The notes beneath the pieces were generated by a model. The model made no database searches. It had not been told where the DNA came from and saw nothing but the letters and a program-made list of their open reading frames with translations. The translations under genes were made by a program, and so were the position numbers. A stretch of 64,000 nucleotides of DNA, taken from contig MU053520.1 of NCBI GenBank assembly GCA_013239625.1, positions 1,269,103 to 1,333,102 of the forward strand, read 5' to 3'. Origin of the DNA: Lama guanicoe (lineage: Eukaryota). Below are positions 19,382-64,000 of this stretch, piece by piece (within the stretch, counting starts at the first letter, position 1; every line of letters begins with the position of its first letter).

Positions 19382-19882
19382 GGAGCTATGGCAAGTTGTC
19401 CACATCCCTAGGACTGGTTGGCAAATTCGTGTCTGTCTCATGCTTCCTCTACTTTAAAAGGATACTGTTTTAACATATAGATCTTAACATTTCTCTCTGT
19501 GTTTGCCACATTTCCTTTCTCTCCTTCAAGAAGACAGAATGCTCTGGGTTCATTACTTCAGGGGAAAGATGTGCAGAGAAGAAAGTAGAAATAGCCTGAA
19601 AGTCTTCAGGATTTTAATTTTCCCAAGCCTAAGCTTTTAGGAGAATATGAGAAGATCAGGAGGAGGTAACAAGAAGGCTATTCAGGCAATAGTGTGAGTG
19701 GTTCAACAGAATGAGGATCTGCAAAGTTTAGACAAGAAACAAAGAGGAGTCTGTTGATCCAGAGGTCTGAGAAGACCTTTTGGTCTTTCCTGGAAGTTCT
19801 GCTGTCAAGGTATTTTCTGAGTCAAGAGAGGCATATCTACTTTCTGCATCCAGCTTGACCAGACCATAGGCAAAATGATTCT

Positions 19883-19962
19883 TCTTTTTTAAGTTTTATT
19901 GAGTTAGTCAGTTTACAATGTTGTATCAATTTCCAGTGTACAGCACAATTTTTCAGTCATAC
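19883..19962 (-). mobile_element. Lineage-specific L1 extreme 3' end (~80 bp)
   Basis: Reverse complement reads gactgaaaaattgtgctgtacactggaaattgatacaacattgtaaactgactaactcaataaaa plus an A-rich tail. Confidence 0.9.
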
Positions 19963-21234
19963 TAAATGGATCAAAGACTTAAACATAAGACAAGATACAA
20001 TAAACCTCCTAGAAGAAAATATAGGCAAAACATTTCTCACTTACATCTCAAAAATGTTCTCCTAGGACAGTCTACTCAAGCAATAGAAATAAAAGCAAGC
20101 ATAACAAACGAGACCTAATTAAACTTACGAGCTTCTGCACAGCAAAGGAAACCATAAACAAAATGACAACCTACGGAATGGGAGAAAATTTTTGCAAATG
20201 ATGAAATTGACAAAGGCTTGATCTCCAGAATATATAAGCAGCCCATACGACTCAATAAGAAAAAAATAAACAACCCAATCCAAAAATGGGCAGAAGACCT
20301 AAACAAGCAATTCTCCAAGGAAGACATACAAATGATTAATAGGAACATGAAAAAATGCTCAATATCACTAATTATCAGAGAAATGTGAATCAGAACTACA
20401 ATGAGGTATCACCTCACACTGGTCAGAATGGCCATCATTCAAAAGTCCACAAATGACAAATGCTGGAGAGGCTATGGAGAAAAGGGAACCCTCCTACACT
20501 GCTGGTGGGAAGGCAGTTTGGTGCAGCCACTGTACAAAACAGTATGGAGATTCCTCAAAAGACTAGGAATAGATTTACCATTTGACCCAGTAATCCCACT
20601 CCTGGGCATATATTCAGAAGGAACCCTACTTCAGGATGACACCTGCACCCCAATGTTCATAGCAGCACCATTTACAATAGCTAAGACATGGAAACAGCCT
20701 AAATGTCCATCAACAGGTGACTGGATAAAGAAGAAGTGGTATATTTATACCATGGAATACTACTCAGCCATAAAAAAGACAGCATAACGCCATTTGCAGC
20801 AACATGGATGCTCCTGGAGAATGTCATTCTAAGTAAAGTAAGCCAGAAAGAGAAAGAAAAATAACAAATGAGATCACTTATATGTGGAATCTAAAAAGAA
20901 AAGAAAAAGACAAGAAAAAGACAAATGAACATAAATACAAGATAGAGACACTCATAGACATAGAATACAAACTTGTGGTTGCCAGAGTTGAGGAGGGTGG
21001 GAGGGGACAGCCTGGGAGTTTGAAATTTGTGGATACTGACAGCTATATATAGAATAGATAAGCAAGATTATATTGTACAGCACAGGGAAATATATACAAG
21101 ATCTTGTGGTAGCTCATGGTGAAGAAGTATGTGACAATGAATATATGTATGTTCATTATAACCGAAAAATTGTGCCCTACACTGGAATTTGACACAACAT
21201 TGTAAAATGACTATAACTCAATAAAAAAGAAAAT
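19963..21234 (+). mobile_element. Young 5'-truncated L1 (copy A): ORF2 C-terminus, 3' UTR, polyA signal
   Basis: ORF 20401-20787 ([15 protein letters not shown]...TWKQPKCPS...MEYYSAIKK) is L1 ORF2p C-terminus; AATAAA at 21220; no TSD found. Confidence 0.97.
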
Positions 21235-21239
21235 AATGG

Positions 21240-22100
21240 AAGATATATGTGTCTTATTATTACATTTAAAGAAGTAGTTCAAAGTTTCACCATTTAAATT
21301 ATCTTTCCTATCATTTTTCCTGCACAGAAACCCTTATTAAGGTTAAAAATCAAAAGTTTTTTTCTATTCCTAGTACAATAATTTTTATTAAATACTTTTT
21401 CTGTATCTATTTAGGCAAGCAAATTTTCTTGTTGACTTTTAACTGTTAATATGATGTTAATTTGAAAATAGATTTTCTAAGATTCAATGATCATAGTCCT
21501 TGGATAAATCTTGTTTGTCATAGTTTATGCATACATTTGATTTACTAATACTGCAATTAGGAATTTTACATCTGCATGTTTCATAAATATAATTGGTTTA
21601 CACTTTCCTTGCACTGCTTTTGATCAATTATGCTATTGATTTTCTATTCATTTAAAAAATTAATTGGATAATATTCTTTCCTTTTTATTCTCTGAAACAG
21701 TTATGGTAATAATTTTTTGTTACTTAACTGTTTATAAAACTTTCTTATCCTTTTGGGAAAGTCTTGGATTACTAATTCAATGATAATTGATTTACTTAGC
21801 CTTTCTACTTCTGCAGTTGATTTTGCCATTTTGACCCACTTCTAAATTTGCATATGTACTGTGCTAAAGTCATTTGTGGCATTCCCATTTAACTTAATAA
21901 AAAACAGTTTTCTTTACTGTGTACTCTAATTTCTAATTTTTAAAACACTTTCTGCTTTTTTTCTGGATTCATAGTCCTAAAACTTCTTTAATTAATTATC
22001 TCAAGTTACCAACTGGTTTTGTTGACAATCCCTTTGAATTCTGTAGACCCAAGCTTTTATTTAATTCTTTAACTGGTTCACAATTTTTCTTTTATTTTTT
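21240..22100 (-). mobile_element. Ancient L1ME ORF2 remnant
   Basis: T-rich; ttctattcctag, gatttactaatactgcaattaggaattttacatctgcatg, gatttacttagcctttctacttct. Confidence 0.6.
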
Positions 22101-23220
22101 GCCTTAAAAATATTTCCTTTTATTCATTTCTTTCTCACACCCTTCTCCTCCTTTCTCATTCTCATTTCATCATCTACCTGTCCTCTGAATTCAGAGCTAA
22201 AAAGTCATAAAGAGAGAAAAGACTGAAATAAAAGGAGAGAGTCCATCCTGTGTTTGTTCACACACCAACCCTGTCTTCATTTTGCCTTTGACTAGAAAGA
22301 TGTGGCCATTGACCTCCAGTTCTCGTATTTTTACTATTTCCCTTAACGTAAAGCTAATTAGTGACCTTGAGAGCAGAATCCCAAGAAACAGAAACATAGT
22401 AAGAGCTGATCACCAAAAATGCAAATGAAAGCATTTTTTTTGTTTGTTTGTTTTGGAGTTTTTTGCTTTTGTTTTTGTTTTTATTTTTACCTTTTGAGCC
22501 CATTCACAATGCATTTTTGATGGAGGCAAGAATTAATTATATGGATAGATATGAGCAATATATGCAAATAAACAAGACACTGTAATACTCTGTGGTGTTA
22601 TGACATAAATTAAGGTTGCATGAGGGTATATATAATGCATACCCCTCTCAATCTTGTATGTCTGGAAAGCAGAGTTTTTTCATGAATTTATTTTTTACAG
22701 ATTCTTATCTAAGTTACAAATTAACCCATTTGGTTAATTATTGATTTAATGTCTCCTCGAGCTGATAAAATTCACACTCTAAGTGGTTAGAAAGCTATTT
22801 CTGTCTTCTGTAACACTTTAATCCCTGAACTTAGTGTAGTATCTGACATTTCATAGATGTTCAACAAATGTGTTTAGATCGAAATCTGATTAATTTAATT
22901 CAAGCTCTCTAACACACCAAATATTTAGTTGAAAATATTTAGCAAATTGTTAAGAGATGTGCAAATACCAGGATGCTCTAAGTCATGAAATCGCACTAAC
23001 TATATGATCAGTGTAATTTTGTTTTCATAAAAAAATGGAAGGTTAGACATCAGATATCATTTAGTTGAATCCTCTGCACCCCTTATCTTTAGTACAAAGC
23101 AAGTTACATGAAAATGATTTGACTCATCTTCAATCACTGCTAGATATATCATATCCTTCCTAAAATAATACTTGTCTCTATACAAGAGTAAGACCTTTCT
23201 ACACTGAGAATAATCTTTCT

Positions 23221-23246
23221 CACACACACACACACACACACACACA
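23221..23246. repeat. (CA)13 microsatellite
   Basis: Read directly. Confidence 0.95.
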
Positions 23247-23412
23247 ATTATGATAACCTCCAAACCAGTTCTCAGATCCATTATAGAAGAACATAAATGA
23301 GAAAATTGAGGCCTTGTGTTATCCCAAATCATGGAGTTGGTTATGTTGTTCAAACTATGAATAACAGTAGTTTCCCTGGATCTCAAGTTTTTGAAATGTT
23401 TAACCTATTCTT

Positions 23413-24369
23413 TTTTTTTTTAACATTTTTTATTGACTTATAATCATTTTACAATGTTGTGTCAAATTCTAGTGTAGAGCACAATTTTTCAGTTATACAT
23501 GAATATATATAGATTCATTGTCACATTTTTTTCTCTGTGAGCTACCACAAGATCTTTATATATTTCCCTGTGCTATACAGTATAACCTTGTTTATCTATT
23601 CTACATTTTGAAATCCCAGTCTATCTCTTCCCACCCCCTGCTCCCTTGGCAACCAGAAGTTTGCATTTTATGTCTATGAGTCAGTCTCTGTTTTGTATTT
23701 ATGTTTTGTATTTATGATTTGTTTGTTTTTTTGTTTTTAGATTCCACATATGAGAGATCTCATATAGTATTTTTCTTTCTCTTTCTGGCTTACTTCACTT
23801 GGAATGACATTCTCCAGGAGCATCCATGTTGCTGCAAATGGTGTTATGCTGTCTTTTTTATGGCTGAGTAGTATTCCATGGTATAAATATACCACTTCTT
23901 CTTTATCCAGTCATCCGTTCATGGACATTTAGGCTGTTTCCATGTCTTAGCTATTGTAAATGGTGCTGCTATGAACATTGGGGTGCAGGTGTCTTTTTGA
24001 AGTAGGGTTCCTTCTGGATATATGCCCAGGAGTGGGATTACTGGGTCAAATGGTAAATCTATTCCTAGTCTTTTGAGGAATCTCCATACTGTTTTGTACA
24101 GTGGCTGCACCAAACTGCCTTCCCACCAGCAGTGTAGGAGGGTTCCCTTTTCTCCATAGCCTCTCCAGCATTTGTCATTTGTGGACTTTTGAATGATGGC
24201 CATTCTGACTAGTGTGAGGTGATACCTCATTGTAGTTCTGATTTGCATTTCTCTGATAATTAGTGATACTGAGCATTTTTTCATGTTCCTATTAATCATT
24301 TGTATGTTTTCCTTGGAGAATTGCTTGTTTAGGTCTTCTGCCCAATTTTGGATTGGGTTGTTTGTTTTT
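23413..24369 (-). mobile_element. Young 5'-truncated L1 (copy B) with perfect TSD
   Basis: Poly-T head and ORF2 C-terminal peptide in ORF 23919-24425; TSD gaaatgtttaacctattctt at 23393-23412 and 24370-24389; target reads TT/AAGA in L1 sense. Confidence 0.97.
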
Positions 24370-25289
24370 GAAATGTTTAACCTATTCTTAATAAGTGATT
24401 TTATTCTAATATAGCACAGAGTCAAATAATATAGCCAAAAAGTATATCATATGGGCCAGTTCATTTATTTGACTTAAACTATACACACTCAGTTTAACAT
24501 GGAAAAAAAAGGCAAAAAATAATCATTTGAATTGTGTTGGAAATTCTTCTCACTAGAACATCAATAAATATATTGCCTGAAACAAGTGTAACAGGAAAGG
24601 CTAATATCCTAGTTTCTTTGTTAGTGTCAATTACCCTGTCCTCTCATAATCGAAGCATTTTGCTGCACTAAATTGCATTTAAATATATGTCTTTTTCATA
24701 CAACATGGCCTTCAGCCAAATGCATCATTAAAAGTCCAAACAAAGAAACAGAAAAAAATTTCCCTAGTCGTGTAGGAAAAACTGCCTGTTCTGGGAACAT
24801 TTTAAGACAGACTGTTGAGCTCCATTGATGCACCTTCATAAAGTATCTTCAAGGGTAAGTTTTACATCGGATTTTTCAATTTACGAGATGCATTTAGAAC
24901 TAAAGTTCTGTGTAAATTCAACACCAAGAATGGATAGAAAACATGGGGATTTCCCTTGCTTGAATGGAAGGCTCTGTAAAGCAAGTGCCAAAGATATTTG
25001 GAGCCACTAAACAAAGGCATAAAAACACCCATATAAATGAAAGGTGTAAACCAAAGTAAGCCCTTTTCTATGGTTTATGTGTAAGTGTCTGTAAATTCTT
25101 TGGGAAAAAGTTACTAAAAAAGATGGCTGTCAATTATCCAATCTATGTAGTTAGTTATGGAAAAATTATAATATTTTTGGAAACTAATATTCTGAGAGAT
25201 TCAAATATTAATGACCCAAACAGAATCTCAGTTGGAATGCTGAATTGTGTTCTCTTTTTTGTCTTTTTGCTCATTCTCATGTTCCCTGG

Positions 25290-25521: not shown

Positions 25522-26682
25522 TGTTACCAATCTCAGGTCTAGCTCCTCACTGCTTTAAGATCAATACACAAGAGGCAAGTGTTGGTAGAAAAGAAAATTG
25601 TTCTTAATTAGAAAAGTGGCAATCTGGGGGAGCAGGTGGATTCATGTTCCCCCAAGACCAGCTCCCAAGATTCTGCTCAGACATGAAAGTTTTTAAAGGG
25701 AAAAGGGGAAGTCATCTTAGTTAAGCACTGAGATGGGGGATCAGACTCGTCACCATCTCCCACTAGGTGCAGACTTGTCAACACCTCATGATCTTTTCTT
25801 TAGATGCCATCTTGTTCACACGTGTGTTCACAAAATTACTGAAGGGGAAGTTAGGGAAGAGATCTGGACATCTGCTAATCACTTATCCTTCCTTTTTACT
25901 TCTTTGATCTAAGGAAAGAATCTACAGGTTAGGCAGGGTATTGTGTGAGCAAAAGATTTGAAAAGTGTGCTTGGACCAGAGGTGAGCAGAGCCCTGGGGT
26001 GCCCAGTTTAAGTTTAGTTACAATATAGCTCTCTAAAGTGACAAGACAAAAGGGCATCCTCTTGCAGAGGGCTCTTCCCTGCAAAGAGCTCTTTCCTTCC
26101 AAAGCTGCTTACAAATCCCCATTTGTCAGAACATGATTCCATTTCTCTGGGACTATGGGTGAAAGTCCACCTTCTGCAATTTCTTCACGCTGACGTCGGG
26201 TGCAGTATTCTTAGAGGGAAAGACGTCCACGTGGGTCTGCAGCATCTTTTTGCTGACAGTTTTAGCTACCTGCTTATGTATATGGGCAGAACAAGCTGCA
26301 ACTTTTTTTGATGCCCACAAAGATATAGATTATTATGAGCAGTAGTGTTAACCTCATTCTGTTAAGGCCAGTTCTTGGAATTGTGCTGGCCAGAGATTCA
26401 GTACTGCTCAAGATAGAGCAGCTTATGTCATGGCTACAGTCTGGTCACCATGCAGTTTGCTTTTTCCTTCTGGTGCCAGGTATAGTATCCATAAGATAAT
26501 TCAGGAATGTGCATCAGCCACCGAGTTTGTGACTCTATTGTCTTAATCAACAACTTCTTGAGCCTCATCTCTTGTGACTCAGGGAGGTCAAGGAGACTCC
26601 AGCTTTTCTACAAACTAGAGGCTGGGGACATTGAGGGGACTTTGAATTGGGAGGGGGCCCTGCAAGGTTCTGCTCAGTTCCA
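25522..26682 (-). mobile_element. Long (1.16 kb) ERV1-type solo LTR
   Basis: TG...CA termini (tgttacc...cagttcca); 4-bp flanks ttaa/ttga; left ~490 bp aligns with 43875-44370; its start (revcomp tggaactgagcagaacc) matches the LTR start at 51560. Confidence 0.85.
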
Positions 26683-27877: not shown

Positions 27878-28207
27878 TGTAGTAGAGAATAACTTTCATT
27901 TTGTTGGAGGTTTACAGGGACACCATGACCTAGCCCACAGGAATGGCTGCAAGGACAAAGAATGCCTGCAACAAGAAGATTTCAACAATCAGCCACACCC
28001 CCTCCCTTATTTTTCCTCCCCCTCCCTTAATTTTTGTATAAAAGGAGCATGCATTCTGACGAGAGCAGGATGGTTCTCCAAGACATTTGTCTGCCATCCT
28101 CTCAGTCTGCCGGCTTTCCGAATAAAGTCGCTATTCCCTGCCCCAACACCTCGTCTCCCGATTTATTGGCCTGTGGTGCAGCGAGCAGGAATTTGGATTC
28201 GGCAACA
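27878..28207 (+). mobile_element. Short (330 bp) ERV1-type solo LTR
   Basis: tgtagtag...ggcaaca; perfect TSD ctgg/ctgg; TATA-like tataaaa (28037) and AATAAA (28121); homologous to 48266-48766 and 55874-56409. Confidence 0.92.
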
Positions 28208-43874: not shown

Positions 43875-44381
43875 TGCTGCTGACTTCAGGTTTGGCTGCC
43901 CACTCCTTGAAAGCCAATACTCTAGAGACAAGTGTTGGTTGGAATGGAAAGTTTACTTAATTCAGGAGGCTGGAAACCTGGGAAGAAGACCTACTCATGT
44001 CCAAGAAGTAACTCTGAACTTTCTGCTCAGGCATGACAGTTTTTAAAGGGAAAAGGGGGAAATAATCTCAGTTGATCATTAAGACAGGGGGTCAGATTCC
44101 TCATTTTCCACTGTGCACAGACTTGCTTACTCCTCTTGATCTTCCTCTAACTGCCGTTGTGTTCACAAAGTTTGCGTGTGGGATAACTGAACGAGAAACT
44201 GGGCAAAAGATCTAGTCATCCATTAATTACTCATTTTTATTCCTATGTCTTTAATCTAAGTATAGAATCAACATGTTAGGTAAGGCGTTCTGTGCTCAAA
44301 AGTTTTGAAAGGTACACTAGGGCTGGAGGTTAGTGAAGCATGGGGGCACCTGCCGTAAAGTTGTTAAAATATGACTTGACA
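43875..44381 (-). mobile_element. ERV1-type LTR, partial or short relative of 25522-26682
   Basis: Collinear with 25522-26025 (caagtgttggt, tttttaaagggaaaagggga, tttgaaa); no clear TSD. Confidence 0.8.
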
Positions 44382-47335: not shown

Positions 47336-48265
47336 ACTCATTATCAGCTGTGCAAATGAAAAGCTGACATCAAAGGTGGACCAGTTAATCTGATATACTG
47401 AAAATTAGTACAGACATCGCAGAACAATGTGCTGCTTCAAACAGGCTAAACATAAATTGCTGAAGTGTGTTACTGGAAATGCTAGATGGCATGTTTTCGA
47501 CTTCTATCAGGATTAAATTTATCCCCCCTTTTTAGGTACCTGGTTTTCTTTTCTTGCATAAATCATGCCTATAATTTGTCTTCTATGATTTCCACTTTCT
47601 ATTATAAAGTTCAGAGAAAATCAGGTATTCTGAATGCATAGTCTTTCTAGATTTTTATTGCTTCCATTTGTCTTACAGTTGTCTCACATATATCTAACTC
47701 AATTACCAGTAATTTTTTTTCCTAACTCATTTTTAGTGGCTTTCTAAAGCCCTCAACTTAGCTTTTATAGAGGTAACATTCTTCTCTAGTTGCACATAAT
47801 TATTTACATAATTAAATTAAGTGATTATAAAGACAAGTATTGCTATTATAAAATGGTCTGAGAACAAACACAACTGATTCACAGTAGGCATGGGGCTCAA
47901 TGGCTAAGAGCAGAAAGGCACTGCCACCCGCCATTGTGTTCAGTTGCCCCTCTTATTTAATCATTGTGTTTCACAAGGCAAATGGAAGGGGTTAATCAAG
48001 TGATTCAGTTGAGTGGAGAATGTCTACTGTTGAATTCATTTTTATGTCTGATTACTAAAGAAGTCAATTGTCTTTCAAATATGTGTTAGTCACATATATT
48101 TTCCCAAATAATTTATTTTGTTTATAGATATAAAATCATATCTTTTGTAATTAAGTAACTCTTAGCAATACTACATATGAAGCTAAGGGAGTGAATTTAA
48201 TGAGCTTCAAAATCAAGAAATGTATTGGAAAGATAACATGTATAATTCAATCATCATCAATATAC

Positions 48266-48766
48266 TGTTACCAAATCCAAACCTGTTCTGCTTACCACAC
48301 AACAGGCCAATAAATCAGGAGATGAGGTGCTGGGGCAAGGAATAGCGACTTTATTTGGAAAGCTGGCAGATTGAGAGGTTGGCAGACTAATGTCTTGGAG
48401 AACCATCCTGCTCCAGTCAGAATACAGGCTCCTTTTATACAAAAACCAGGGGAGGGGATATGTTTGGTTATTGCAAACTTCTTCCTGCTGGAATTCTTTG
48501 TTCTTACAGCTGTCCATGTGGGTCAGGCCATGGTGTTCCTGTAAACCTCCAACAAAACAAAGGTTATTTTCTGTTTTGCAACTTGCCATCTCTACATAAG
48601 TGCAGAAGTGATAACATCCTTATAGGTCAGAGCCCCGAGAATAGGCTCTCCTGTATATTTCTGGCTAAAGGCAACATTGTTTTACAAAAGATACAGAGCT
48701 AGCAAGACTAAGCCTAGAAAACAGGGCACAGTGGTTATGGGGTCAGATTTGTTCTCCTCTATTACA
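48266..48766 (-). mobile_element. ERV1-type solo LTR (501 bp)
   Basis: tgttacc...tattaca; perfect TSD atac/atac; same family as 27878 and 55874. Confidence 0.93.
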
Positions 48767-52842: not shown

Positions 52843-55194
52843 GGGGGAAGGGGCCAAGATGGCAGAGTAGAGAGACTCTCAGCTAACCCTCTCCCACAAA
52901 TATACCAAGAATTACATCTACAAGCCAACTGAATCACACAGAACATCTACTGAACTCTGACAGAGTGTCTCTCGCTTCAAAATACAGGAGGATTCTCACA
53001 AAATCTGGTCAGAGAACAAAAGAGCAAAGAAAAAGAAAATCATTGTGGGACTGGTCCTGTGGGGAGGAAGCAGCAAAGGAAGAAAGGCACCTTCATGCTG
53101 GGATGCCCCCTTTCCAGCCAGGAGGTCAGCAGGTACAGAAGTGGAGCTTCTAAGTCTTGGAGAAGAAAGTGTCACTTTCTTGGCAGACAGAACTAAGAGA
53201 AACTGGCACAGAGGGTCCCTGTGATTCCCCAGCCCTAGACACAAGCCAGCGGGAACAAGCCAGACTGGCTACTGGAGATCTGTGAGGAGCCCGGGAAGCG
53301 GGCTGGGGCCCACTGCACAGGGGCAGCCTCAGGGGACTGGAGAGCATTGTGGGCCCTGGCTGGGAGTGCTTGCAGAATAGAAAAGCCTGGAACTCCCATA
53401 AAAAAGCACCACTGCTGGTGTACAGGTTGGGGGGAAGGGGCACAACATAGACTTGCCATAGTCCCATCTCTGCTTGGTTTCATTTTGATGTGTTCTCCAG
53501 AGAATATAGGTGGGGCTTGGTCACAGCTATACCTGTTACATGAAGGCAGGGCAAAAAGCTGAATCCATACCCAGGGGCCCTGCAACTTCACAGGCAGGAC
53601 TGAGATTTGTTTACAGCCCCAGACAGAAAGGGTGGATGTGCTCCTCTGGTGCCATTGTGAACCTTCACTTCTGGGACAAACAGGAAGTGAGGGGAGTTCT
53701 GGCACATGGTGGGGGTGAGAATAGGTATTTACAAAAGGCCTGCATACTGTATCAAATATGAAGGAGAGGCTAGGGTCTGCACTGACCCTGTGGTGCACCA
53801 CACATTCAGGTGTGTGGCTGCATGCTCACTATGTTGGGTCCTAGCACCTGACATTGGTGGATCTGCACTAGTGGATCCTGGGGCCCAGAACCTAGGGGAC
53901 ACCAGAGTGGGTGGCCAAAATTCCTGCAGATGAGCCAGGGACAAAGACACCATCAACAAAGAGTTCTTTGAAAGCTCACATAACAAGTAAAAGACAATCC
54001 CACAGGGGGCACTTCCCAGCAGACATCTCCTGCAGTGGTATACTCAGTGACTCCTCTTCCCACTGAAGCGCTCCAGCCCTGCCTACCACACACCACAGCT
54101 CAGAAAAAGGTCTAGAAACCTCTATTCCAGCAACAGGGGAGCAGACCTGGACCCTGTCAAGGCTGTGACAACCAGAGATTTAAAAAGGAGGCCCCGCTCA
54201 ACAACAACAATCAGGGCCGGCTCTGATCACCACAACACCCACCACAGCCCCAGTCAAAGGGATAACAGCCAACACACACAGAAGAAAGATGTGGCAACCA
54301 TCCATACTAAGAACAACCCTCACAGCAAAACTATTAGACACACACACTCTACACAGGAACACTCCCACTTTAAATAAAAACAAACAAACAAATAAAATCC
54401 CCAGAAGGCCACAGTATATAACTGATACTTCTAAATCCATAGAGACAAAGAAATATAAGTAAAACAGTATGAAGATTCCTTAAAAACTAAAAATAGATTT
54501 ACCATATGATCCAGCAATCCCACTCCTGGGCATATATCCAAAGGGAATCTTAATTCAAAAAGATACATGTACCCTAATGTTCATAGCAGCAATATTTACA
54601 ATAGCCAAAACATGGAAGAAAACTAAATGTCCACCAACAGATGACTGGATGAAGAAGTTGTGATATATTTATATAATGGAATACCACTCAGCCACTAAAA
54701 CAAAAATAAAATAGTGTCATTTGCAGCAACATGGATGGACCTGGAGATTATCATACTAAGTTCAGTAAGCCAGAAAGAGAAAGAAAAATATCATATAATA
54801 TCACTTATAAGTGGAATCTTTAAAAAAAAAGAAAGAAAGGGGGAAAATAAAAGCAAATGAACTTATTTACAAAACAGAAATAGACTCATAGACATAGGAA
54901 ACAAACTTACAGTTACCAGGGGGAAAGGGGTGGAAAGGGAAAAAAAATTGGGAGTTTGCAGATACTAACTAATATGTATATGTTATAGATAAACAACAAA
55001 TTCATACTGTCTAGCACAGGGAACTATATTCAATATCTTGTTACTTATGATGAGAAAGAATATGAAAATGAATATATTTATGGTCATGTATGGCTGAGGC
55101 ATTGTGTTGTACACCAGAAATTGACACAAAATTGTAAACTGACTATACTTCAATAAATATATTTATATACAAAAATATGAAAAAAATAAAAAGT
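52843..55194 (+). mobile_element. Internally deleted L1 (copy C): full 5' UTR fused to ORF2 tail and 3' UTR
   Basis: Start gggggaaggggccaagatggcagagtag...ctcccacaaatatacc...cagaacatctactgaac; junction aaatataagtaaaa|cagtatgaagattcc at 54461-54465; 3' part aligns to copy A from ~20540 to the end; AATAAA at 55152. Confidence 0.9.
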
Positions 55195-55375: not shown

Positions 55376-55873
55376 TTTTACTAAACGTTTTACTAAACCA
55401 CATTTTATTAATCTAGTGCTTGAGATATTTTTGAAGAACATTCTATATTTCCCTAGTTTATCTGTGTCCTGGTTACCAACCAACCATGTAATAGACACTA
55501 TTAGGTAAGCAGTTGCACAAACCCAGATGCTTTGTGAATTAAAAACCTGCTGAAAAGTTAATGATGAGTGAAATCCAAAAGACCAGTATATATCTAGTGC
55601 CTGTTCTGTTCTAGTAACTCTGGAAGGACTAAGCTGGCCAATGAAGCAGATACACCGGGTCCCGTTTCCAGCGTAAACTTAGATCCCTTCCCATTTACCC
55701 TGTTCCAGTCTGCTTTGTGATCTGACAACACTTTGTTCCTATGCATGTTCTTGGTTTTCTCCTCCAATGCCTCTGGTTTAGAAGATCTGTGATATAATCA
55801 CTTGCCATCTTGAACCTGATGTTCTTATATTCTGTTATCAGTCTCTGGCCTCTGGCACAATGACCACTGCTAT

Positions 55874-56409
55874 TGTTACTGAGCCCAAACTTGTTCTGCT
55901 CACCACACAAAAGACCAGTAGATTGGGAGACGAAATGTTGGAGCAAGGAATAGTGACTTTATTTGGAAAGCCAGCAGACTGAGAGGAGGGCAGACTAATG
56001 TCCTGGAGAACTATCCTATGCAAGTCAGAATTCAGGCTCCTATATACTGAAAAGGGGAGGGAATGTGGTTGATCGTTGCAAACTTCTTGGTGAAGGAATT
56101 CTTTGTTCTTCGAAACCTTTGTTCTTACAGCTGTCCACATGGGTCAGATCATGGTGTCCCTGTAAACCTCCAACAAGACAAGTGTTATTTTCCATTCTGC
56201 AACTTGTTATCTTTATATAAGTACAAAAGTGTTAATATCCTTAAAGATCAGAGCCCAGAGAATAGAGTCTCCTGTATATTTCAGGCTAAAGGCAACATTC
56301 TTTTACAAAACATGCAGAGCTAGCAAGACTAAGCCTAGAAAACAGGGCACAGGGTTAAAGCCAAAGAAGCAGATCTAATATGGAGTCAGATTTGTTCTTT
56401 TCTATTACA
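55874..56409 (-). mobile_element. ERV1-type solo LTR (536 bp)
   Basis: tgttact...tattaca; TSD ctat/ctct (one mismatch); collinear with 48266-48766. Confidence 0.93.
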
Positions 56410-60289: not shown

Positions 60290-61140
60290 CATCAAAAGAA
60301 CAAATCTTACTTAACTTTCCTGAAGGCTCAGCAGAAAGCCATAAAGCCTCTTCTGATTCCATTTCTCTCCACAGCCTCCATCGTCTCCACCTTGGTACAA
60401 GCCATCAACATCTCTCCACTGGAAGGCTACAAGAGCCTTCTAATTTGCTTCCTTGTTTAATGCTTGCCCTCCATGTTGCTAGGTAATTAGATAAGTGGGG
60501 GCGCTGGGCAGGTAGGAGGAGGAGAGAGAGGATGGTCTGGAAGATGGTGCTATGCCCACCTCCAGCATAATAGGACTTTACTTTCTCTAAATGAGTGCCA
60601 GCAAGAAACTGATTAGAACCCAACAGCCACAACTGTGAGGTGGTGGCAAAGACCTAACTGGACATGACCCAGTGCTCATTGTAATATAATTAGCATTGCA
60701 GTTTTAGCCCCCCATGGATTTTTCTGTGTGCATCATGGGTAAGGAGATGCACAAAAGGGGATGAGCATGACTAGGCACTCCAGGGGCAAGAGCTGTCAAT
60801 CAATCAAGAGACCACCTTTAAGCAAGGGTATAAGAGAAAGGGATAAACAAAGACCACTGCTATCCTCCCTTGGATCATTCTGCCTCCCATTCCTGGAGGT
60901 GCACTCACCCTTTGCTAAATAAATCCTTTAAAAAAATCTTTTGCTACACAATGCTTCACCTACCATCTGAATTCCTCTTTCAGTTATGTCAAACTGGGGT
61001 CTTTTCCCTTCCCCTTTTGGCGTAACAGTGTGACCACTCCTGCATGTAGCAATAACAATGATATTTTCAAAAGTAATTTAGATTACACCAATCTCTCCTC
61101 TTAAAACTCTCCCATGGCCTTCATCATATTTCTCCCATCA
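60290..61140 (+). mobile_element. L2 fragment split by an LTR
   Basis: ccaccttggtacaagccatcaacatctctccactggaaggctacaagagccttcta; resumes after 61027 with tagattacaccaatctctcctcttaaaactctcccatggcctt. Confidence 0.7.
60477..61027 (+). mobile_element. ERV1-type solo LTR (551 bp)
   Basis: tgctaggtaattagata...ggcgtaaca; flanks atgt/gtgt; gggtataagag TATA-like element and AATAAA; collinear with 63390-63943. Confidence 0.9.
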
Positions 61141-62399: not shown

Positions 62400-64000
62400 T
62401 TTTATTGGGTATTCTTTTTTAAAGTAATACAAAGCTTGTTGTCACAAGGCAAACACTATGAAGGTATATAAAAAAAATGAAATAAAATAACAATCCTTCT
62501 TAAACCCTCCAGTCTAACGCCAATAGCCCAGTGCAACTTGTTATGTTAATTTACGATTTGGCATATATTCTGTGTACCTATTTCTGTGCCCTTAGAAATA
62601 TAGATAGATGGATGGATAGATAGGATATATACACATACACATATTTACACACATGTATATTTCATGTTTTTATAAAAATTGGGTCATCTCATGCAACCTT
62701 TCTATAAAACTTGCTTTCCATCAACAGTATATTCTGTTCTTCCCTCTGGGTCGTTACATACAAATATAACTCATTCTTTTATATTTATATATTCATTCAC
62801 TCATCATATATTTATGATGACTGTCTACAGATATCTGCTTTCGACACTCAGGTGAACAAAACAGACGGAAGTCTTGCTTTCATGGAATTTGCATTGTAAT
62901 ATGGGAGACAGACAATAAACATAAAGAAATAAAATAACAGCATGTCACATGGTACTGAGTGCTGTAGAGAACAGAAAGCAGGGGGCTCCAGAGAAAGGAG
63001 TATGGGGGGAGGCTTGCTGTTTTTCAGAAGTGGTTGGAGAAGGTGTGTAAGCCAAGAACTGAAGGAAATGAGCCAGCAAGACGTGCATCTATCTGGGGCA
63101 AGAACTCTCCAGGCACAGAGAACAGCAATACAAACAACACTGCCAAAAATATCCTACTAAAAGTTTCCTTATGTACTAAAGCTTCTTGAATCATTGGTCC
63201 AAAGATATGCACATATAAAATACGCACCCCAGATCACTTTTGCAGCAATTTACAGTCCTATCAAAAACCTATCAAAATGTATAAGGATGCCCCTTTCACA
63301 ACAAATTGATCAGCACTGGAAATAATCAATCTTTTTAATTCACGTCAAATTAATGTTTTGACTTTTATTTCTCTGATAACTGGTGAAGTTGTTAGGTAAT
63401 TAGATAAATGGAGGCACCGGGCAGATAGATGGAGGAGAGGGAGGATGGTCTGGAAGATGGTGTTATGCCTACCTCCAGCATAAAGGGACTTCACTTCCTC
63501 TAAATGAATGCCAGCAAGAAACTGGTTAGAACCAAACAGCTGCAACTGCACAGCAGCAGGAAGGACCTACCTAGACACGACCCAGTGCTCATTGTAATAT
63601 AATTAGCATTGAGGTTTAGGCTCCCACATGTTTTTTCTCTGTGTGCATCATGGGTAAGGACATGTGCAAAGAGAACAAACACGGCTAGGCATTCCAGGGG
63701 CAAGAGCCGTCAATCATTCAAGAGACCACCTCTAAGCGAGGGTATAAGAGAAAGGGGCAAATGAAGGCCACTGCTTTTGCTCCCTTGGATCAGCCCAGTT
63801 CCTATTCTTGGAGGTGTACTTTTCGTTTCCTAAATAAATGCTTTAAAATCTTTTGCTACACAGCACTCTGTCTCCCATCTGAAATCTTGCCTTTCAGGTA
63901 TGACAAGAATTGGGGTCTCTTTCCTTCCCCTTTGGAGGTAACAAGGTTAGGCAGCTTTTCATATGGTTTTTGGCCAATAAAAGATTCTCAGTTGGAGGCT
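62400..64000 (-). mobile_element. Ancient L1ME 3' remnant interrupted by a minus-strand L2 (~62790-63140) and an LTR
   Basis: tttatttctctgataactggtgaagt|LTR|aggttaggcagcttttcatatgg continues the reverse ORF2 motif across the LTR. Confidence 0.6.
63390..63943 (+). mobile_element. ERV1-type solo LTR (554 bp)
   Basis: tgttaggtaattagata...ggaggtaaca; flanks aagt/aggt; same family as 60477-61027. Confidence 0.9.

What the first reader, a model, noticed from the sequence alone, without database searches (positions are those of the whole stretch)
20262..24369. Inverted L1 pair with a homogenised ORF2 tract carrying the same inactivating mutations: probable gene conversion
Seen: copy A (+) and copy B (-) lie tail-to-tail, 2.2 kb apart. 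By manual alignment 20422-20613 is identical to the reverse complement of 24018-24209 (192 nt). 20391-20633 has only 2 differences, and 20638-20710 is again identical. The 3' UTRs, by contrast, differ by a ~22-nt indel and about 20 differences in the last ~180 nt. Both copies read [28 protein letters not shown] and AAPF. Established: L1 ORF2p has a CX3CX7HX4C knuckle (CWRGCGE...HCWWEC), followed by QPLWK and LPYDP, and the knuckle cysteines are needed for retrotransposition. Both copies have lost the 2nd and last Cys identically. Copy C (from 54465) keeps the Tyr codon and lacks the other shared variants it covers. Inference: two independent insertions later exchanged sequence, probably through fold-back pairing. 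B's intact TSD argues against a net inversion.
Basis: partly seen in the sequence, partly recalled or inferred. Interest (0 to 1): 0.75.

Follow-up and report, generated by a model that had tools for sequence, protein, structure and literature searches.

The report
Neighbouring dead L1 copies share mutations
Two broken jumping-gene (LINE-1) fragments sitting 2 kb apart in opposite directions in a camel-family genome share the same damaging mutations over about 370 bases, most likely because one was used as a repair template for the other, which is a known process with no sign of function here.

Summary
Two 5'-truncated L1 copies lie tail-to-tail, with a 192-nt identical block and an intact 26-nt target-site duplication on B.

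The subfamily-trait rival mostly fails. In 28 dispersed camel-family ORF2 fragments, the five shared amino-acid changes occur in 1/23, 0/25, 0/26, 0/27 and 0/28 copies, and the shared 1-nt loss in 0/26. A and B differ at 4/129 codons; none of 317 panel pairs is that close (median 12.8%). They form a 100/99 clade whose stem is as long as a typical copy's whole branch.

The homogenised region is wider and patchier than reported: about 20422-20788, three identical blocks (192, 73, 71 nt) split by islands of family-polymorphic states. Weak signs point to B as donor.

The best reading is non-allelic gene conversion after insertion (about 0.72). An assembly chimera is untested (no reads laid), fold-back pairing is inference, and the panel's named copies are Camelus only. 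The Cys losses are neutral decay in dead fragments.

The scan's notes showed no similar L1 pair. This is a known process of low interest.

The parts
19962..21228 (+). Copy A: 5'-truncated L1 (end of ORF2, 3' UTR, short A tail); no TSD found; start approximate
23413..24369 (-). Copy B: 5'-truncated L1 (end of ORF2, 3' UTR, A tail)
23387..23412 (.). B target-site duplication, copy on the tail side (26 nt, perfect)
24364..24389 (.). B target-site duplication, copy on the 5' side; its first about 6 nt overlap L1 sequence (junction microhomology)
20422..20613 (+). Identical block 1 in A (192 nt); carries the shared C>Y, C>G, W>Y and Y>F changes
24018..24209 (-). Identical block 1 in B
20634..20637 (+). 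Unhomogenised island: A encodes D (as 15 of 28 panel copies), B encodes K (as copy C and 5 of 28); 3 differences in 4 nt
20638..20710 (+). Identical block 2 in A (73 nt; B 23921-23993); carries the shared L>P
20711..20717 (+). Second island: B-private stop, a CpG difference, and A's G state found in a 5-copy sub-group of the panel
20718..20788 (+). Identical block 3 in A (71 nt; B 23843-23913); carries the shared 1-nt loss near 20773 and N>S
20830..21228 (+). Non-homogenised 3' part of A (last ORF2 codons and 3' UTR); 13.4% substitutions and 8 indel events against B
21229..23386 (.). Spacer between the two tails, AT-rich
19894..19961 (-). 68-nt 3' end of an apparently older L1 type, joined head-to-head to A's 5' end
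54461..55157 (+). Copy C, an older L1 fragment used as outgroup (77% to A)

Best explanation
Two L1 copies of one camel-lineage family, probably from slightly different masters, inserted separately 2.2 kb apart in opposite orientation and decayed neutrally (insertion anatomy shown; different masters inferred). Later, homologous repair copied about 370 nt of the ORF2 end (about 20422-20788) from one copy onto the other without crossover. That carried one copy's private mutations (C>Y, C>G, W>Y, Y>F, L>P, a 1-nt loss) into its neighbour (sharing shown; mechanism inferred). The exchange was patchy, either several short tracts or one long heteroduplex repaired in patches, and left two islands of the original differences. 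B to A is the likelier direction (weak). Whether the template was reached by intrachromatid fold-back or on the sister chromatid or homologue cannot be told. Nothing suggests a function.
For: The shared states are rare or absent in 28 dispersed camel-family copies: 1/23, 0/25, 0/26, 0/27, 0/28, and 0/26 for the frame loss. No copy carries more than one of the five. A-B differ at 4/129 codons, against a median of 12.8% for 317 panel pairs, none as low; the nearest panel copy to A or B is 10.9% away. In the tree A+B has 100/99 support, stem 0.069, tips 0.025 and 0, median tip 0.057. 7 differences in 367 nt has P 0.00014 at 6% and 0.006 at 4.5%. The 3' parts and flanks are not homogenised and B has its own TSD and tail. 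Shared derived changes lie in three separate blocks between copy-specific sites. All 5 panel copies with G at 20716 have L at 20608 (Fisher p 0.0013) and 4 of 5 have N at 20623; A has the G but B's residues at 20608 and 20623. Conversion between TE copies less than 10 kb apart is reported as elevated for Alu (PMC6598467, parts 1-2 of 4 read).
Against: No reads or second assembly were examined, so a chimeric assembly is not excluded. The panel is protein-level, biased to open frames (so the 0/26 for the frameshift is weak), small (95% upper bound on frequency 10-12% for 0 of 23-28), and its 24 named members are Camelus, while the window's species was not determined. Silent sites could not be polarised. 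20262-20421 (7 of 160) is compatible with independent copies (P 0.25-0.57). Inside the left block the 192-nt run alone is only marginal (P 0.03-0.17). The direction rests on one base in A that could be an independent mutation. The tree bootstrap had not fully settled (correlation 0.988).
Confidence: 0.72

Rival explanations
1. Assembly or polishing chimera: the assembler or polisher switched between the two nearby copies at shared words, writing one copy's sequence into the other in patches.
For: Path-switching would also give patchy identical blocks carrying one copy's private changes (inference). No reads were laid. The best independent runs hold only 0.72-0.81 of the sampled words of 19500-25000 (20 of 23 listed runs), which is unexplained and not localised.
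Against: The window has no N. The blocks are interrupted by copy-private changes (20614 in A, 20711 in B) within one read length of shared ones. The copies were about 6% or more apart before exchange, enough for reads to map to the right copy (inference).
Confidence: 0.13
2. Chimera made at insertion: the nascent cDNA of the later copy switched template to its neighbour, so its 5' part is a copy of the neighbour (Gilbert et al. 2005 type; recalled, seen only as a reference).
For: Low divergence runs from about 20860 towards B's 5' end (17 of 602 against 48 of 338, change point 20819-20865). B's perfect TSD fits a young B (probability of no change 0.51 at 1.3%, 0.13 at 4%).
Against: One switch predicts uniform post-event divergence, but the islands at 20634-20637 and 20717 keep family-polymorphic states, and 20262-20421 is as diverged as independent copies.
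Confidence: 0.08
3. Subfamily trait: both copies descend from a dead master that already bore the changes and was mobilised in trans, possibly in a lineage the panel does not sample.
For: The panel's named members are Camelus only and are biased to open frames. Some shared states are family polymorphisms (V at 20590 in 3/28, S at 20781 in 1/27; P0235 has both).
Against: The five amino-acid changes are found in 1/23, 0/25, 0/26, 0/27 and 0/28 copies. Same-master copies should share a 3' UTR, but these differ at 50 of 372 with 8 indel events. Two members of a rare subfamily landing 2.2 kb apart is improbable (inference).
Confidence: 0.07

Closest known systems
Homogenisation of neighbouring Alu elements by non-allelic gene conversion (Zhi 2007; Aleshin and Zhi 2010, not held, seen as cited in PMC6598467 and PMC3670932)
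   Same: Nearby retroelement copies less than 10 kb apart with reduced divergence and a mosaic of subfamily-diagnostic and private sites.
   Different: L1 ORF2 fragments rather than Alu; a single camelid locus rather than a genome-wide statistic; a region of about 370 nt.
L1-L1 gene conversion (Tremblay et al. 2000, seen as a reference; locus NCLI34 in PMC1920257, passage)
   Same: Part of one L1 is replaced by sequence from another L1 on the same chromosome.
   Different: Here donor and recipient are an adjacent inverted pair, and the transferred marks are neutral decay mutations.
Retrotransposon recombination-mediated inversion between inverted L1 pairs (PMC2603318, passages)
   Same: The same substrate: an inverted L1 pair able to recombine.
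   Different: Those events leave chimeric elements with unmatched TSDs; B's TSD matches, so there is no net inversion.

Membership tests
L1 (LINE-1) 5'-truncated insertion | ORF2 C-terminal homology to L1 | tested here: met
   85-90% identity over 53 aa to the top proteins named LINE-1 ORF2 [Camelus dromedarius]. Pfam gave no family for either copy's fragment.
L1 (LINE-1) 5'-truncated insertion | 3' UTR, A tail and target-site duplication | tested here: inconclusive
   B has a tail and a 26-nt TSD; A has a short tail but no TSD was found.
Active L1 ORF2p | Intact CCHC (CX3CX7HX4C) motif and open frame | tested here: not met
   The 2nd and last Cys are lost in both; stops and a frameshift are present. 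86 of 120 other L1 fragments keep the pattern. PMC10830420 (passage) says the CTD is required for retrotransposition and the CCHC role is unclear; the need for each single Cys is recalled, not checked.
Non-allelic gene conversion between TE copies | Local identity higher than independent family copies show | tested here: met
   4/129 codons against 0 of 317 panel pairs as close; run statistics.
Non-allelic gene conversion between TE copies | Shared derived changes that are not subfamily-diagnostic | tested here: met
   1/23, 0/25, 0/26, 0/27, 0/28 in the panel; panel limits apply.
Non-allelic gene conversion between TE copies | Independent insertion, with no flank homology and no crossover | tested here: met
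   Homology ends at the element borders; B's TSD is intact. A's own TSD is absent.
Non-allelic gene conversion between TE copies | An orthologous outgroup locus shows the unconverted state, or shared polymorphism exists between the copies | not testable with these tools
   No whole genome is held for the window; no orthologous sequence was obtained.
Non-allelic gene conversion between TE copies | Identity present in raw reads | not tested
   No read alignment was obtained for the locus.
Retrotransposon recombination-mediated inversion | Unmatched TSDs on chimeric elements | tested here: not met
   B's 26-nt TSD matches.

The most novel reading that the evidence does not exclude
The pair is a recurrent exchange hotspot: two roughly 1-kb L1 fragments that began about 6% apart keep converting each other in short patches through intrachromatid fold-back, perhaps with a 2.2-kb inversion that toggles in living camelids. 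It would be a small natural reporter for tract length, direction and tolerance of divergence in L1-L1 conversion.
Probability: 0.2. Interest if true: 0.4.

Novelty: new member of a known kind. Interest (0 to 1): 0.2.

Why it matters
It is a clean single-locus example that neighbouring inverted L1 fragments can copy decay mutations onto each other. This can mislead dating and subfamily assignment of repeats: two copies sharing six changes look like a new dead subfamily or a recent duplication. It changes no model. Conversion between nearby retroelements is in print, the copies were already dead, and no function is indicated.

Tried and rejected
No whole genome is held for the window, so no genome-wide nucleotide search for the haplotype was possible. 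No read alignment was obtained, so the artefact question stays open; one search lists 20 of 23 runs holding 0.72-0.81 of the words, which does not localise anything.

Searches that gave no camelid copy: the first protein search (best 120 listed, at most 79% identity); exact look-ups of 5 A/B ORF variants, 0 of 5 found; an exact 28-nt pattern in metagenome contigs, 0 matches; related-locus scans, which gave 27 and 7 loci, mostly 51-80% identical and not used. Pfam found no family for A or B. P0222 (labelled as a turtle protein but camel-like) was displayed and left out of all counts.

Shared sites dropped from the strong set: 20293 (panel n=1), 20344 (n=3), 20419 (possible CpG parallelism), 20590 and 20781 (family polymorphisms), 20734 (hypervariable), 20775 (same event as the 1-nt loss).

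Rejected: simple inverted duplication (no flank homology, diverged 3' parts); net inversion (B's TSD); twin priming for the 68-nt piece at 19894-19961 (it is a 3' end and shares diagnostic bases with copies C and D rather than A and B).

Literature: 10 searches listed no paper on this locus or on conversion in camelid L1 pairs; four of them returned nothing, and the library lacks most subscription papers. Aleshin and Zhi 2010 is not held. Supplements of PMC8605555 could not be read; a camelid repeat library there might bear on the subfamily question. Passages of PMC8605555, PMC10830416, PMC7586669 and PMC12350158 added nothing.

Full report
Observation. A self-comparison of the window finds an inverted L1 pair, A 20262-21228 (+) against B 24369-23426 (-), 90% identical over 971 columns, and an older copy C at 54461-55157. 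A further 71 identical bases lie at 20718-20788. From 20830 to the tails the copies differ at 50 of 372 columns with 8 indel events, including a 21-nt gap in B. B has a perfect 26-nt TSD. A extends 5' to about 19962, has no TSD, and abuts a 68-nt L1 3' end on the other strand. Both copies read CWRGYG, HCWWEG, QPLYK, LPFDP and AAPF, and both shift frame near 20773.

More than chance? Over the whole alignment, 0 of 20000 permutations give a run of 192 or more, and the change point at 20819-20865 beats 500 of 500 permutations (17 of 602 against 48 of 338). That contrast is partly ORF against UTR. The 3' parts are more different than same-master copies would be (P about 1e-7 at 6%), so A and B likely came from different masters. 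Within the left block the 192-nt run has P 0.029, or 0.17 with clustered differences merged. The fair baseline is dispersed family copies. Their median 12.8% amino-acid difference corresponds to about 6% at the nucleotide level in simulation, where a 192-nt run has P 0.00012 and 7 differences in 367 nt has P 0.00014 (0.0028 and 0.006 at 4.5%). The first 160 nt (7 differences) are compatible with independence.

Subfamily test. A short query from the block found camel-family ORF2 fragments, and their clusters gave a panel of 28: 23 named Camelus dromedarius, 1 C. bactrianus and 4 unnamed. These share the family-specific residues of A and B, so they are the right comparison. The A/B states occur in 1 of 23 (C>Y, 20473), 0 of 25 (C>G, 20512), 0 of 26 (W>Y, 20533), 0 of 27 (Y>F, 20581) and 0 of 28 (L>P, 20668) copies covering each site. 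The 1-nt loss occurs in 0 of 26, a count biased by selection for open frames. Over codons 20401-20787, A and B differ at 4 of 129; 0 of 317 panel pairs sharing at least 90 codons are that close, and the nearest panel copy is 10.9% away. In a tree of A, B and the 26 panel copies with at least 90 residues, A+B has support 100/99, a stem of 0.069 and tips of 0.025 and 0, against a median tip of 0.057 in a star-like family (bootstrap not fully settled). The shared stem is as long as a copy's whole post-insertion history, which is what copying one element's private decay onto another gives. Limits: protein level only, 95% upper bound on frequency 10-12%, named members Camelus only, and the window's species not determined.

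Anatomy of the exchange. Four strong shared changes sit in block 1, one in block 2 and one in block 3. Between blocks 1 and 2, A encodes D like 15 of 28 panel copies and B encodes K like copy C and 5 of 28, with three differences in four bases. Between blocks 2 and 3, A has a G found in 5 of 28 copies, all of which carry L at 20608 (p 0.0013) and 4 of which carry N at 20623; A has B's residues at both sites. I infer that the islands are leftovers of the two original masters, that the exchange was patchy, and, weakly, that B was the donor.

Mechanism. Best reading (0.72): non-allelic gene conversion without crossover after both insertions, in several short tracts or one heteroduplex repaired in patches. 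Shown: the sharing, its rarity in the panel, separate 3' parts and flanks, and no net inversion by B's TSD (criterion in PMC2603318, passages). Inferred: the conversion itself, its direction and any fold-back geometry. Rivals: assembly chimera (0.13; untested, no reads laid), template switch at insertion (0.08; disfavoured by the islands) and a dead master unsampled by the panel (0.07; disfavoured by the panel, the 3' UTR divergence and proximity).

The Cys losses. The CCHC pattern is kept in 86 of 120 other L1 fragments. PMC10830420 (passage) says the C-terminal domain is required for retrotransposition and that the CCHC role is unclear; the need for each Cys is recalled, not checked. In 5'-truncated copies with stops these changes are markers of neutral decay, not a functional event.

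Comparison with the known. PMC6598467 (parts 1-2 of 4 read) reviews conversion between TE copies, mosaic diagnostic sites in Alu and raised rates for copies less than 10 kb apart. PMC1920257 (passages) describes an L1 locus modelled by intrachromosomal conversion and cites L1 break repair by conversion. PMC3670932 (passages) cites Alu homogenisation. Ten searches listed no paper on this locus, within a library that lacks most subscription papers. The scan's own notes showed no similar L1 pair; they note conversion between mucin paralogues in the same genome.

Verdict. The feature is real in the sequence and is probably true gene conversion between an inverted L1 pair. It is a new instance of a known process with no sign of function. 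Interest 0.2.

Noticed in passing
window 19894-19962: A 68-nt L1 3' end with its tail on the minus strand is fused head-to-head to copy A's 5' end, and A has no TSD. It shares diagnostic bases with copies C and D rather than A and B. Likely A inserted into an older element with target-site deletion.
   Followed up: partly
window 60475-61027 and 63388-63943; 48263-48737 and 55871-56357; 27884-28207; 25533-25966 and 43886-44313: Other dispersed repeat pairs at 69-81% identity; not identified, used only as controls for run length.
   Followed up: no
window 23387-23412 and 24364-24389: B's TSD is 26 nt (about 20 without the junction microhomology), at or above the 7-20 bp range quoted in PMC2603318.
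   Followed up: partly
protein P0222: A UniRef entry labelled as a turtle (Chrysemys picta bellii) protein is within 3 of 105 residues of the camel L1 panel majority; probably contamination or mislabelling, not checked.
   Followed up: no
protein P0126: A Camelus bactrianus GTF2F2 isoform model whose C-terminal part is an in-frame L1 ORF2 fragment: exonisation or an annotation error.
   Followed up: no
loci L028-L034: Seven short contigs in bacterial genome records encode mammalian-type L1 ORF2 pieces; likely contamination.
   Followed up: no
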